Shown here in pieces: positions 1,121-47,588 of a DNA stretch of 64,000 nt (positions are counted from its first letter, which is position 1; each line of letters starts with the position of its first letter). Made by a program: the position numbers and the translations under genes. Source of the stretch: Eledone cirrhosa (lineage: Eukaryota); contig OZ024740.1 in NCBI GenBank assembly GCA_964016885.1, forward strand, positions 323,454,001 through 323,518,000. Reading direction: 5' to 3'. A model generated the notes under the pieces. The model was not told where the DNA came from. It worked only from the letters and a program-made list of their open reading frames with translations, and did not search any database.

Positions 1121-1289
1121 TATGTATGTGTGCGTGTATGTATGCATGTATGTATGCATACAGTTGGCGTTATTTCGTGTCAATTAATCCGTGATATATA
1201 TATATATATATATTTACATTATGAAGAGAGAAGAAACATTTAGATATAATTAGTAATAAAATGTATCATACCTAAACTGCTCCTAAATT

Positions 1290-1377
1290 CCTCGACTACG
1301 TAGTTTCGTGGCATAAACAAAAACAATATATCATAAAGACATAGAGTCCCTGCGAGGTCTGCCGACTTATCAAGAGG
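1290..1377 (-). ncRNA. Type I hammerhead ribozyme, U3-A8 core variant
   Basis: Minus: cctc TTGATAA gtcggca...tgccac GAAA ctacgtag TC gagg; stems I, II and palindromic III all pair. Confidence 0.75.
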
Positions 1378-2469
1378 TTACCTCATTTTACTAGTCTCAA
1401 GAACGCGTCTACACGACGTGAGAAAGAATCCCAAAAGGCGGAGGGGGAGATAGTCACGCGATATAACGGTCGAGAAACAGAGCTAAGCCTCTTATAACCT
1501 CGAAGAAAATACCACGGAGGCGGAGGGGGCATTTATATCGAGGCCGCAGAAGAGGTGGTGAAGAAGGCGAGAAGTATGGGTAATGGATATTTATATATAT
1601 ACACACACATATATACATATATATATATACACACACACATATATACATATATATATATATATTTACACACACACACACACACACATATATATATATATAT
1701 ATATATATATATATAATTGCGCGTGTGCGTGCGTGTGTGTATGCATAGATATATATATATACCTAGAGATAATCAGCTACATAATCTGACAATATATCAA
1801 AATAACCTGCGACACTCACAAAGACACACACGCACGCACACACGCGCACATACCAACACACACACTACATAAGTTACCATTCAATAAAACTTAAACAAGC
1901 AACATATGATATCTATCAAACCAGCATTTAACGAAAAACAAAGCGCTTTCTACTGATGTATTGTCCGCACTGACTGTGGCGTTACGTGACAGCAACATCC
2001 AACTTCAATCAGATTTCATTTCCTGCTCACGTTCTCAAAGATATTTTCTAAGGAAGAGACGAATCTGACCCATATTCTATATATGTTCTTCCAAAACAAT
2101 GGATATTCTAGCGTCTCATATATGTATCATTATATACGGTGTCTCTCTATTAAGTTTTGTTTATAAGTGTAATCAAGATATGTGTTAAAACACGTTAAAA
2201 CATGCACACGAATATATATATAGTAACACAACAGTTAGTTCACCATACCGAGAACAATTGTTTCACCTTATATATATATATATATATATATATATATATA
2301 TATATATATATATATATATATATATATATATATATATACATATATATAAATGGTTTCCACGAACTATTATTAGTTAGGTCTAAGGAAAATTCCGCGAATA
2401 ACAGGCACTGCGAATGGCGGGGGTACACTATATGTACACTATATATATATATATATATATATATATTTA

Positions 2470-2675
2470 AATGGTTTCTACAGGACTAGAACTGTTTCAT
2501 TCGGGAGAAATCATCAGGGCTTCCTGATGATTTATCCTGAATGAAACAGTTCTAGTCCTGTAGAAGCCATTTCCATATTACATATTAAATATTCATACTC
2601 TGCTACGTATTGAGTACCTTACTTACTGTGGTTACACCCGATTGGTTACCCCCGATTGAACACGTGATAATCATA
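2470..2675 (+). mobile_element. Foldback PLE pLTR mini-element with atypical hammerhead-like motif
   Basis: Head-to-head arms about 2470-2518 / 2523-2572 each read CTGATGA tttc..gaat GAAAC agttcta GTC; related copy at 19140-19190; stem I is poor. Confidence 0.6.
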
Positions 2676-2784
2676 TATATATATTCACCCGGGTGAACCT
2701 ACAGTAACTCTGCGTTACACTTCCTCTCTCTCTCTCTCTATATATATATATATATATATATATATATATATATAAATATATATA

Positions 2785-2951
2785 ACGAAGGAAATGTGGT
2801 AAGGAACCAGGTGGACCATAACGCACCAAAGTACTCAATACTTGAGGTAGTAGAGTGGGTAATAGGAACCAGTAAGACCCCGACAGCTGAGGTCCAGAAT
2901 TAGCCGTCGAAACGGCTTGAGCTCAGCTGTCGGGGTCTTACTGGTTCCTAT
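2785..2951 (-). mobile_element. Foldback pLTR mini-element (family of 15405-16465)
   Basis: Tail aacgaaggaaatgtggtaaggaacc..gtagagtgggtaatagg plus hairpin 2861-2951; bounded by (TA)n on both sides. Confidence 0.75.
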
Positions 2952-3052
2952 AAATATATATATATATATATATATATATATATATATATATATATATATA
3001 TATATATATACAATATATTAATAAATGGAAACTATATTTATAAAACCAGATT

Positions 3053-44171: not shown

Positions 44172-44217
44172 GCTAACAGTGTTTCATCCATACCCTAGGG
44201 CAGGAATCATCGGAGCT
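44172..44217 (-). ncRNA. Type I hammerhead ribozyme, U4C variant
   Basis: Minus: gct CCGATGA t tcc tgccc ta gggta t gga t GAAA cactg TT agc. Confidence 0.65.
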
Positions 44218-45231
44218 TATAAACAAAAATATATCAAAGGTTGCAGGCTCCATCGAGCTCAGTAACCAGAACCAAGATGAAGGACAAGTAGGGGGTCCCA
44301 GGCCAGCGCTGTATAGAATAACACACAATACATGATACATATAATGTCATAAAAAATTACATCAAAAGTTTATCACATAACTGTTGCAATAGATCATAAG
44401 GAGGTTGAGAGAGGAGAGCAAGAAATGAATGAGGGTGTTATTCAGCATGATCGAAAACAAACCAAGCATAGATACATCAATTCACAAGCAGTGCAAGTAC
44501 ATGATTTACAGGCAGAGTATGAAAGCTTGTAAGCAGGAGTCAGTAAACAGAAAAGTTGGTTAGCTGTGGTGCAGCTTTACAGGCAGGATTGTTTATAGGA
44601 AAGATGGTGCACTTCAGTAGTATCGCCTTGTAACAGGTCGATTTCTCCATATCAGACCACCACCCTCTATCCATTGGTTCCAGTTCCAAGCATTAGGCGA
44701 CATAATACCAGGTTTCCAATTACACGCATAGAGGATCTCTCCACAGAGGCAGTCTGCAACAAACATCTTAAATCCAAAACAGAATACAATGAAGTGAGGT
44801 AAAGCAAAGTACATGCACTGCTGGCACTCCAATGAAGAAAGTGAAATTAAAACAGGTCCACAATATCTGCTATCTCTCACAGTCTTCACTTTCGGTTATG
44901 CAACCCAACGTCCCACGTGAAATACACTGCATGGCCCAGTCGGCATCGAACAACAGTGCCATACCATATGTAAATATACCACAGTAAATGCTATTCGTAA
45001 TGGCTAGTTAGTCTCGTAGACAGAAAGCGTATATAGAAAACTCCGCCTATGGAAATACCTAGGGCAGAGTGAAGGAAACGCAGTGATGGTTAGATTAATA
45101 GGCGGGCTTATTAGAATAAGTGTAAATTTCTGGTGTGTGCAAGTACTGCAGAAGATATAGTAAACTCACGGCTAGAACTGTCAATGACAACAATGTTGTT
45201 TACATGTCCACCACGTGGTTTTTGTGTAGAT

Positions 45232-45919
45232 CAAATGTTCTCAAGGGGGGGCATATGCACCCCCGGGGGGGCGTTTCGGAACTCCAGGGGGGAGTTTGGG
45301 AGCAAGGTCGCGTTAGGGGGGGGGCTGGGGGGGGGGGAGGTTAGGGGCGCTGGAAGGCTCTTTATTTTGGTAAGTTTTATAAGCCATATTTGTATGTCTT
45401 TGAGACAGCCAGTGTGAATGCATTTGAATGAGCTTGCAGACAGCATAACTATAGTCTGACCGCAGCTGTGAGCAGGTGTGCAGGCATGTCTGGTAATTGA
45501 GACGTTAACCGGTAATTGAGATCCTAAAAATGGAAAAACCCACAGTCAACTTGGTCAAAGACACTTTGAGCGCAGCCAGTTAGAATCTTATTTTTCCTTC
45601 ACCGATAACAATGTATTTTATGTCTGAAATTATTGACTCAGCCGTAACGAGTTAACACTATATAGATCTATTTTATTCCCTATTGTGTAAATAATATTAC
45701 AAATAAAAAAAAAAGAAAAGGAAAAACAGAAGCGAGTAGCACACACATCTAGGACCACATACAACACATAATCAGATAATACACACATCTTTAGAATATT
45801 GTTAATCAATTTTTTATTAATCTACTGATATAAAAATCAGTAGTATATTGAAAAATGGAAAAATAGGGGGGGGGGGGGCATTTCGTGATTTCGAGGGACA
45901 AGTGGGTTGAGAACCTGTG
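45232..45919. mobile_element. hAT-type MITE
   Basis: TIRs caaatgttctcaa / ttgagaacctgtg; perfect 8-bp TSD gtgtagat (45224-45231, 45920-45927). Confidence 0.85.
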
Positions 45920-47011
45920 GTGTAGATTACTGAATCTGAAGGTTGTAATCTTTTCACAGTCGGGTATAACCCCTCCTGGGTCGGCTGGAAGTCAATATCA
46001 ACTATCGCACATTGCCTTGAATGCGGTTTTATAATTTATCATATTTGCAGCACAATTTATATTCCACAATATCAAAAGTTAGCTTCTCGTTAGTAACTTC
46101 CAACGGTTTTCAAAATACGGGCGCAGGGAGTCGTTGTGCGTTTATGAAAGTATGGGAGGTACTTCGCGTCATAAAGGGCGGATTCATTAGGTATCCCCGG
46201 GACGCTTGGGGCAAATCCGTAGTTCGATTCAAACCCTTCCGGTGTTTGATCGATCATGTGGCACCTAGTACACTCGATTTGCTCACATTGTTCACTATAT
46301 TATGTTGGATCTATGTCACACGCTATGGTCAAGGCTATCTGGATCCAAGATGCCCAGGCCATCCGCCTTATAGTTGCGGTGGAGTATGTTGGGCTTTCGA
46401 TAAACTATTATGCTGTGCTATCAATTAGCGCACAATGGGCATGTTTATAAACCATATCCCATTGGTTAGTATGGGTAGGTGCCCGTATAGGGTGAAACTG
46501 TGCTGGGTAGAGTGAAAAGGCCTTAAGTAGTTGTACCATATGGGTTATGGGCTTAAGGTAAAAAGATGATTAAGGTAAAAGAGAAAGAAAAAGTAAAAGA
46601 GAAGGAATGAGAGAAAGAAAAGAGGAGAAGAGCCAATATACGCACGATGGGCTCTAATTGGTGGACCGGAGCGGATCTACCTCAATTAAGGTCGCATACG
46701 TGGGTTTGGTGTGCTGTTGGGAGAGTCGCAAAGGCATGCTATGAGTAGAACCCCCATGCGGGTCCCTAGAGTATGGGAATGAGGATGAGGTGAGGTATTG
46801 CCATCAATGATGACCCGGCCTACATGTAAAGAAACGTAGAGTAGGGTCGGGTCGGGTCGGGTCGGGTGAGGGTTGCCAGAGGTCAGTCGGGACCTAAGAG
46901 AGGTGCACAGTGAGGTGCCGAAGCAGGTCATGTCGTACAAGGTTGCTCTAGGAGAGTACAGTGTCGTATATGGTTATCTAATGGGTAATATATTCCTTTG
47001 TTATATTTCGA

Positions 47012-47069
47012 ATACCTGATGATGTCACCGGATTCATACTGAACCCGGTCATTGAAATGATCATAGTAT
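47012..47069 (+). ncRNA. Type I hammerhead ribozyme
   Basis: atac CTGATGA tgtc accgg a ttca tac tgaa c ccggt catt GAAA tgatca TA gtat, then aataaa. Confidence 0.85.
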
Positions 47070-47588
47070 AATAAACCTTTTAAGGAATTTCACTCTTATT
47101 TTATAATAATTAACTCCGTACTCGCACCACCAACAACACAAATGATGACGGGTGAGTTGCATTACGTTGAGTGCTCTCCATAATATTACATCGAGGTTGA
47201 CCATACGGAATGACCAGTTCTATCCAGTGGTGAACCAACAACCCTAAATATATATATATATATATATATATATATATATATATATATAAATGAAAAGTAT
47301 AGAAATTATTGTAGCAAGAAGCCAACAGTATTCCATAATATATAAGTGACTATAGCGTCAAAATGGAAAAATAGTTAACGTAAGATGTGGGAAAATAATT
47401 CAAACTCAATTCAAAAAGAATCAGGATATAGATTCATCCACAGAATTTGGTGAAATCCAGGGAAAAATCAATAGAGCCTTAACTCAGAATAAAATAAAGT
47501 TTAAAATACTCATCCTTCAATTTGGAAAAACTACAAATGCTCTGTATAGTCTTATATATATGTGTATAGTCTTATATATATATATGTG

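What the first reader, a model, noticed from the sequence alone, without database searches (positions are those of the whole stretch)
1195..47290. Strict polarity: every hammerhead points at a microsatellite within about 15-280 nt
Seen: whatever the strand, the 3' side of each predicted cleavage site runs through a short tail, often with AATAAA, into (TA)n. The 23543/41247 family instead runs into (CA)n or (CATA)n. Inference: element 3' ends are primed at nicked microsatellites, with family-specific repeat preference, and may extend those repeats.
Basis: partly seen in the sequence, partly recalled or inferred. Interest (0 to 1): 0.75.

Follow-up and report, generated by a model that had tools for sequence, protein, structure and literature searches.

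The report
Penelope ends in pre-existing microsatellites
The hammerhead-ribozyme motifs here lie near the tail ends of known Penelope-like jumping genes and their gene-less hitch-hikers, which sit inside simple repeats that likely existed before the insertion; the lean towards a downstream repeat is real but not strict, and no sign was found that the TA-targeting elements lengthen the repeats.

Summary
The polarity is real but not strict. In the window, 18 of 18 hammerhead-like motifs have a microsatellite 12-290 nt downstream (random points: 34% within 280), yet it is the nearer one in only 14 of 18. In 80 sampled 10-kb stretches the figure is 38 of 49. The motifs mark 3' ends of Penelope-like elements: TA-targeting Hydra-clade families (full 750-aa ORFs found), a Neptune-like family (23574/41278) and a 597-nt retrozyme-like tandem unit. 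Several families stop at two fixed points where the element's own sequence matches (TA)n by 2-7 bases; back-to-back pairs often use one of each. Repeat preference holds in part: 33 of 70 Neptune-like ends enter CA/CATA/C runs against 1 of 153 for TA families, but 22 of 70 enter (TA)n. Extension is unsupported for TA families: all 16 empty paralogues of one target tract already hold it, and filled ones fit length-biased choice. AATAAA is as common antisense. (TA)n targeting by Hydra elements, including an octopus family, is published, and this scan found the same system before on other DNA of this genome.

The parts
1214..1587 (-). Partial copy of a ~597-nt tandem, non-coding retrozyme-like unit. 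Hammerhead with U3-A8 core at 1373, predicted cut after 1294; ends in (TA)n 1194-1213.
   Evidence: 40 scored copies about 99% identical, arrays of 15 or more units on contig C2.
2466..2672 (.). Back-to-back hammerhead pair 2517(-)/2524(+), ends 12 and 110 nt past the cuts, (TA)n on both sides.
   Evidence: Partner ORF not looked for.
2774..2953 (.). Fold-back of the 3' end of the second Hydra-like family; hammerhead core absent.
   Evidence: Self-BLAST to 16358-16510 and 51241-51509.
3010..3299 (.). Fold-back with hammerhead 3110(-), 50 nt from (TA)n, and a truncated half at 3224(+).
5584..8894 (-). 5'-truncated Hydra-clade Penelope-like element: ORF remnant about 7177-8117, 3' UTR with hammerhead 5770(-) (long end, 137 nt), and inverted copy 8119-8894 with hammerhead 8796(+) (short end, 49 nt); (TA)n at both ends.
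   Evidence: 97% identical to the 750-aa open frame of L164.
8941..9549 (+). Unit of about 550 nt with 63-bp terminal direct repeats and hammerhead 9199; ends in (TA)n 290 nt past the cut.
9628..9790 (-). Weak hammerhead-like motif 9780, 117 nt from (TA)n.
   Evidence: weak stem III.
13160..14064 (+). 3' UTR of a further family, likely Hydra-clade, with an internal TA/TG tract (about 13262-13368, used as the empty-site test) and hammerhead 13974 (short end, 52 nt).
   Evidence: In L015 the long end reads on into a Hydra-like ORF.
15406..16464 (.). Back-to-back pair of U3-A8 hammerheads 15509(-) and 16282(+) of a second Hydra-like family; ends 17 and 97 nt.
   Evidence: Hydra-type ORF remnants lie upstream in L175 and L187.
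16527..17885 (.). Divergent hammerheads 16616(-) (end 34 nt) and 17710(+) (end 120 nt); 17710 has (TA)n 57 nt upstream.
19116..19190 (-). Hammerhead 19186 of the 2517 family; runs through a 10-bp TA stretch into (GA)n.
23457..23593 (-). 3' end of a Neptune-like Penelope element, minimal hammerhead 23574, running into (CA)n then (TA)n.
35851..36105 (+). Hammerhead copy with a mutated core at 35924 inside a fold-back; upstream repeat nearer (73 nt) than downstream (153 nt).
41163..41297 (-). Second copy of the Neptune-like 3' end, hammerhead 41278, running into (CATA)n 41075-41162.
46986..47247 (+). Multi-copy element end with hammerhead 47016; ends in (TA)n 182 nt past the cut.
   Evidence: Partner ORF not identified.

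Best explanation
The motifs lie in the 3' terminal repeats of Penelope-like retroelements (several TA-associated families, Hydra-clade where an ORF was found, and one Neptune-like family) and of non-coding units likely mobilised by them, and these ends likely inserted into microsatellites that were already there. Shown: the element identity where an ORF was found, fixed family-specific end points 12-290 nt past the predicted cut, repeats often on both sides, and intact tracts at empty paralogous sites. Inferred: the GIY-YIG endonuclease nicks an alternating purine-pyrimidine tract, and the freed 3' end primes reverse transcription inside the RNA, not at the ribozyme cut. It does so at one of two fixed sites where a few template bases match the target (AU-alternating for Hydra; likely ACA or ACAUA for the Neptune-like family, which would explain its CA, CATA, C and TA junctions). 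Synthesis runs back through the hammerhead and usually stops early. A second arm primed from the other side would give the back-to-back pairs. The polarity follows because the 3' distance is fixed and short while the 5' distance varies.
For: Full-length relatives of the 5584-8894 element carry RWR, DKT, YRDD, CxCx5C, CxxC and CxH motifs and no CCHH, the Hydra criteria of PMC8557442 section 11, which also states (TA)n insertion for almost all families. The CA family lies downstream of an RT plus Cx4CxxC plus GIY-YIG frame. Ends are bimodal per family. All 20 same-family opposite-strand pairs (17 loci) are divergent, none convergent; 10 loci show one short and one long end, 2 show equal ends, 5 are tandem or nested. 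At seven ends with repeated read-through copies the element matches (TA)n for 2, 6, 4, 3, 2, 6 and 2 bases against a mean of 1.08 at random UTR positions. One defined TA tract in 30 paralogues: 17 empty (16 independent), all with a 14-114 bp tract; 8 filled, summed tract mean 78 bp against 66 expected from length-biased choice, P=0.14; 5 unresolved. Junction tracts have median 33 bp (n=83) against 34 bp in the background (n=953).
Against: Filled tracts are longer than empty ones without the length-bias correction (P=0.015), so an added 10-30 bp is not excluded. Only 3 of the 8 inserts carry a hammerhead by my descriptor, and one is a tRNA-like SINE, so the test speaks for the tract rather than for one enzyme. 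In one of two informative cases (L007) the empty paralogues have short imperfect tracts while the filled site has long pure ones. In vitro, a Poseidon-clade enzyme started at a site not homologous to the cut DNA (PMC11167929), against the pairing step. Pfam and PDB sequence searches found nothing significant for the Hydra ORF. No read-through copy of the Neptune-like end was found, so its template end is inferred. Partner ORFs are unknown for several families.
Confidence: 0.85

Rival explanations
1. The reverse transcriptase adds repeats de novo, telomerase-like, so the downstream microsatellite is partly or wholly made by the element. This is most plausible for the Neptune-like family, which could copy a short ACA or ACAUA template repeatedly onto a nicked TA tract.
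For: Nearly all Neptune-like junctions begin with C and none with TG; they form a series CA, CATACA, (CATA)3, (CA)n before (TA)n. By eye, several copies have TA on the 5' side but CA on the 3' side (L035, L038, L048, L082). Some full-length Hydra copies and retrozyme arrays abut TA arrays of 0.6-6 kb. Filled tracts are nominally longer.
Against: CA-type junctions are followed by TA in 19 of 32, against 155 of 327 background CA tracts (P=0.27). Some CAT and CATA runs appear to be tails of other repeats (L057, L064). An internal tract that is never a junction varies 14-114 bp among copies. The long arrays next to one family carry different variant units, so they are not templated by the element. 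None of 83 junction tracts reached 200 bp by the measure, which stops at closely spaced interruptions and so undercounts degenerate arrays.
Confidence: 0.1
2. The pattern is background: microsatellites are so dense that any motif lies near one.
For: About 190 runs in 64 kb; upstream repeats are also near.
Against: 41 of 49 sampled motifs have a repeat within 280 nt downstream against 28% of random points. Distances recur exactly within families. 3' ends abut a tract in 27 of 30, 17 of 24, 26 of 30 and 9 of 10 loci against 9.4%.
Confidence: 0.02
3. The repeat is an encoded tail of the element RNA (after a poly(A) signal or the ribozyme cut), copied along with it, or seeded by it and expanded later by slippage.
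For: AATAAA is above shuffled expectation. A short CA or CATACA may be part of the Neptune-like end.
Against: Read-through copies continue into non-repeat sequence at the same points. The reverse complement of AATAAA is equally common. 5' ends also often abut tracts.
Confidence: 0.03

Closest known systems
Hydra clade of Penelope-like elements, including Hydra-1_Obim of Octopus bimaculoides (Craig et al. 2021, PMC8557442; section 11 read whole, passages, and hits in supplementary file 1)
   Same: [quoted passage not shown]
   Different: RWR instead of RWK; longer 3' UTR (about 1.6 kb); several families, one young (150 scored hits 95-99% identical). The paper reports few mollusc families; two ends of 80-100 nt spacing with target-matching bases were not in the passages read.
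Poseidon element of Anolis, PAc (Frangieh et al. 2024, PMC11167929; parts 1-2 of 4 read)
   Same: Reverse transcription starts inside the RNA at two sites downstream of the hammerhead, giving the optional 'tail'; AT-rich DNA is cut; ribozyme cleavage is not needed for insertion.
   Different: PAc starts at a site not homologous to the cut DNA and its tail is 30-40 nt; here the ends match the target by 2-7 bases and lie 80-100 nt or more apart.
Neptune-clade elements; Chlamys elements for the (CA)n and (C)n bias (PMC8557442, passages)
   Same: Cx2-5CxxC linker before GIY-YIG, proposed to drive microsatellite bias in Neptune; (CA)n and (C)n junctions as in Chlamys.
   Different: A CA bias in a hammerhead-bearing, C-terminal-endonuclease family was not seen in the passages read; about a third of junctions still enter (TA)n.
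Metazoan non-LTR retrozymes (PMC7229834, passages; bioRxiv 10.64898/2026.07.22.740005, part 1 of 5 and passages)
   Same: Non-coding tandem units with one type I hammerhead each; proposed to depend on Penelope-like elements.
   Different: Unit of 597 nt (150-450 bp reported), U3-A8 core, arrays ending at two fixed points in (TA)n. The passages read mention no microsatellite targeting.
Minimal hammerheads of Penelope terminal repeats (Cervera and de la Pena 2014, PMC4209133; part 1 of 4 read)
   Same: Palindromic helix III, extra base before helix II, opposite-strand pairs 100-700 bp apart, U3-A8 core variant in Schistosoma.
   Different: Nothing essential; activity here is untested.

Membership tests
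Hydra-clade PLE (element 5584-8894) | Single ORF with RT and C-terminal GIY-YIG endonuclease | tested here: met
   727-779 aa open frames with RT motifs and IIY...YVG. Judged by motifs and by eye against the Hydra rows of the supplement; Pfam and PDB gave no significant hit.
Hydra-clade PLE (element 5584-8894) | DKT motif and RWK motif | tested here: met
   SDKTNNLY present; RWR in place of RWK.
Hydra-clade PLE (element 5584-8894) | CxCx5C linker, CxxC and CxH, no CCHH | tested here: met
   CNCRDRSKC, CDLC, CRH; no cysteines between the GIY and YIG equivalents.
Hydra-clade PLE (element 5584-8894) | Hammerhead in the terminal repeat and (TA)n insertion | tested here: met
   23 family junctions into a repeat, all TA.
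Hydra-clade PLE (element 5584-8894) | Length generally under 3 kb | tested here: not met
   About 3.9 kb because of a 1.6-kb 3' UTR; the paper says 'generally', so this is a soft feature.
Hydra-clade PLE (element 5584-8894) | Placement in the RT phylogeny | not tested
   Reference proteins were seen only as supplement text; no tree built.
Neptune-clade PLE (23574/41278 family) | RT, Cx2-5CxxC linker, C-terminal GIY-YIG with internal cysteine pair | tested here: met
   625-aa frame in L294 with CSRSRCNTC and YVVY...CSLC...YIG; weak RVT_1 (E 6e-4) and GIY-YIG (E 0.013) hits below cut-off. Its hammerhead end is 84% identical to the window copy.
Neptune-clade PLE (23574/41278 family) | Distinction from Nematis by phylogeny | not tested
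   No tree; hence 'Neptune-like'.
Type I hammerhead ribozyme | Conserved core with three helices | tested here: met
   Own descriptor with 0 hits in reversed and complemented controls for the C3-G8 core. Monomer folding is weak for most (z from -2.9 to +1.0), and no Rfam hammerhead row was among the 150 shown.
Type I hammerhead ribozyme | Self-cleavage | not testable with these tools
   Needs in vitro transcription.
Non-LTR retrozyme (1373 family) | Non-coding tandem units each with a type I hammerhead | tested here: met
   597-nt period, core in every unit shown; coding potential not scanned separately.
Non-LTR retrozyme (1373 family) | Expressed as circular RNA | not testable with these tools
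   Needs RNA data for this unit.

The most novel reading that the evidence does not exclude
The Neptune-like reverse transcriptase copies a short ACA/ACAUA stretch of its own RNA repeatedly onto a nicked (TA)n target before copying the element. It would be a telomerase-like repeat-adding step in an endonuclease-bearing retroelement, and a direct source of new CA and CATA microsatellites. A milder and likelier novelty (about 0.5) is that the template bases at two fixed start sites decide which repeat each family uses.
Probability: 0.1. Interest if true: 0.8.

Novelty: new member of a known kind. Interest (0 to 1): 0.35.

Why it matters
Microsatellite targeting by Penelope-like elements is known, but its mechanism is named as open in PMC8557442. 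This genome offers very many natural insertions (55 strict motifs in 800 kb, roughly 200,000 if extrapolated). They point to defined start sites, target-matching template bases and clade-specific repeat bias, which can be tested with purified enzyme. The analysis also removes the need for repeat extension in the TA families.

Tried and rejected
Rfam scan: only microsatellite-driven miRNA-like hits among the rows shown. Pfam found no family for the window's Hydra ORF pieces and only an insignificant hit for the full ORF; the PDB search found nothing. Two searches for a second haplotype holding an empty allele found only the query locus and unrelated repeats. Paralogous empty-site screen: 183 of 285 blocks tested, 4 hits, of which 2 were informative, pointing opposite ways; the other 2 were one duplicated chance adjacency. 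Automatic 5'-flank typing of Neptune-like copies over- and then under-shot the boundary, so those cross-tables were not used. In one search the 'read-through' rows for two ends were imperfect TA singletons and were dropped; the true read-throughs give 7 and 3 bases. Several 5' 'ends' are internal tracts of the elements, so its 5' counts (22 of 30, 13 of 24, 13 of 30, 8 of 10) are rough, and some loci are duplicates. G3-C8 and A3-U8 cores: none above control. AATAAA as a poly(A) signal: rejected. 17710 as an exception without a repeat: it is the long-end form of 16616. No structure prediction or tree was run. Literature searches showed no paper on hammerhead-to-microsatellite distances in a cephalopod; PMC13282606 has no occurrence of 'hammerhead'. 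Arkhipova 2006 was not read, and bioRxiv supplements are closed, so either may hold related statements.
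Full report
Setting. The window is G000:C1:323454001-323518000 of a 3.0-Gb animal genome, 36% GC, with about 190 microsatellite runs. It looks like an octopus genome; that is my recall, not a result. Rfam listed no hammerhead family in the 150 of 161 rows shown, so I used my own type I descriptor (core, three helices, palindromic helix III allowed).

Observation. The strict descriptor gave 8 motifs in the window, all with a repeat within 200 nt downstream and nearer downstream in 7 of 8. A hand list of 18, adding U3-A8 cores, one weak motif and one mutated core, gave 12-290 nt downstream in 18 of 18, nearer downstream in 14 of 18, and upstream within 290 nt in 11 of 18. 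In 80 evenly spaced 10-kb stretches the descriptor found 55 motifs and none in reversed or complemented controls. Of 49 measurable on both sides, 38 were nearer downstream (medians 145 and 287; random points 708) and 41 lay within 280 nt against 28% of random points. A relaxed descriptor gave 47 of 63 and probably includes a few false motifs. The motifs are not independent, so the P values are optimistic. The bias is real, but 'strict' and 'every' are wrong. AATAAA occurs in 30 of 69 tails and its reverse complement also in 30 of 69.

What the motifs belong to. Hammerheads 5770 and 8796 flank an ORF remnant that is 97% identical to 727-779 aa frames elsewhere. These frames have RWR, DKT, YRDD, CxCx5C, CxxC and CxH motifs and no CCHH. 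Those are the Hydra-clade criteria of PMC8557442 section 11, which says almost all families insert into (TA)n; its supplement lists Hydra-1_Obim of Octopus bimaculoides with (TA)n preference. The 15509/16282 pair has a U3-A8 core and Hydra-type ORF remnants upstream in relatives; U3-A8 is already reported for Penelope hammerheads (PMC4209133). The long end of the 13974 family reads on into a Hydra-like ORF in L015. The 23574/41278 family lies downstream of an RT, Cx4CxxC and GIY-YIG frame, so it is Neptune-like. The 1373 motif belongs to a 597-nt tandem unit with copies about 99% identical, like a non-LTR retrozyme. For 2517, 3110, 9199, 16616 and 47016 no partner ORF was established.

Why the distances are short and fixed. 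The families with many copies end at two points past the predicted cut: 49/137, 52/about 147, 17/97 and 34/120 nt, and about 70/240 for the tandem unit. This is the known optional 'tail' (PMC3846280 passages), traced in vitro to two internal start sites (PMC11167929). All 20 same-family opposite-strand pairs are back to back; 10 of the 17 loci have one short and one long end, 2 have equal ends and 5 are tandem or nested. An earlier scan note suggested that pairing, and I checked it here. At seven ends with repeated read-through copies the element matches (TA)n for 2-6 bases (mean 3.6) against 1.08 at random UTR positions; two more ends give 7 and 3 from single read-throughs. I infer that the nicked target pairs briefly with the template. 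The Anolis enzyme did not need such homology, so this step is a prediction.

Repeat preference. Of 70 distinct Neptune-like junctions, 33 enter (CA)n, (CATA)n, (C)n or (CAT)n, 22 enter (TA)n after CA or CATACA, and 15 are mixed. For six TA families, 152 junctions enter (TA)n and 1 enters (CATA)n; the other motif matches were read-throughs or unclassified. Fisher P is 2e-22 on 33 of 55 against 1 of 153. TA runs outnumber CA/TG and CATA/TATG runs 1297 to 425 in the sample. The preference is real, but it is a bias, not a separate target.

Target or product. The 13974 family carries an internal TA tract, which gives many paralogues of one site. Of 30 loci, 17 are empty (16 independent) and all hold a 14-114 bp tract (mean 48). 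Eight are filled, with tract on both sides in 7 and summed length mean 78; 5 are unresolved. Length-biased choice predicts 66 (P=0.14); without that correction filled exceeds empty (P=0.015). Three of the 8 inserts have a hammerhead by my descriptor. One-sided junction tracts (n=83, mean 41, median 33) match background tracts (n=953, median 34) and about half of the length-biased mean of 89 for tracts under 400 bp. 5' ends also often abut tracts (rough counts). A second screen gave one case with equal lengths and one with shorter, imperfect empty sites. So the tracts pre-exist and no extension is needed for TA families; a gain of 10-30 bp is not excluded. For the Neptune-like family no empty site was found. 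CA runs there are followed by TA no more than background (19 of 32 against 155 of 327), but some copies have TA on the 5' side and CA on the 3' side, which keeps repeat addition open at about 10%.

Verdict. These are new members of known kinds: Penelope-like 3' ends and hitch-hikers in microsatellites. The clade, the target, the tail and the core variant are in print. Earlier notes of this scan describe the same system in many other windows of this genome; they are not independent support. Interest 0.35.

Noticed in passing
window 36981-41070 (-), fragment 22439-22993 (+): Broken non-LTR element that looks R4/Dong-like (label recalled; only a weak RVT_1 hit). The fragment has (CATA)n on both sides, and the long copy shares the (CATA)n run at 41075-41162 with hammerhead 41278.
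   Followed up: partly
L269 and window 602-790 with copies: A tRNA-like SINE of about 190 bp is also found inside a TA tract, so targeting of these tracts is not limited to hammerhead elements.
   Followed up: no
tails of 5770, 13974, 16282, 17710 families; L163, L015, L180, L197: A short hairpin follows the short end by a few bases, and a second copy follows the long end; candidate signal that positions the start of reverse transcription.
   Followed up: partly
L161:7745-8583, L165:2287-2910, L166:about 1600-7500, L170:8133-9126, L208, L221: Degenerate TA arrays of 0.6-6 kb next to element ends, each with its own variant unit; whether real or assembly-inflated was not tested.
   Followed up: partly
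L061-L140: Compound repeats are polar: CA tracts are followed by TA in 155 of 327 cases but preceded by it in 76; only 2 follow a Neptune-like end. Unexplained.
   Followed up: no
L032-L060: Many Neptune-like copies begin at the same point about 240-250 nt before the 3' end, at a motif resembling a YY1 site (recalled); possibly a short non-autonomous form.
   Followed up: no
window 42520-42695 and L272: Multi-copy element of about 190 bp with the first half of a hammerhead core but no downstream GAAA, between TA tracts.
   Followed up: no
window 3726-4264, 10404-10577, 18717-18994, 31652-31848, 36266-36755, 41568-41886/42696-43014: Further fold-backs, mostly bounded by (TA)n, without a complete hammerhead by my descriptor.
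   Followed up: no
window 52808-54448 (+): 546-aa frame with RVT_1 and zf-RVT, an L1/Tx1-like LINE piece by recall.
   Followed up: no
window 24705-26427 and 62292-63499: Tandem arrays of 73 bp (23.6 copies) and 45 bp (27 copies), 95% matches.
   Followed up: no
window 11653-12114 (+): Remnant of another Hydra-like ORF, 42% identical to the main family.
   Followed up: no
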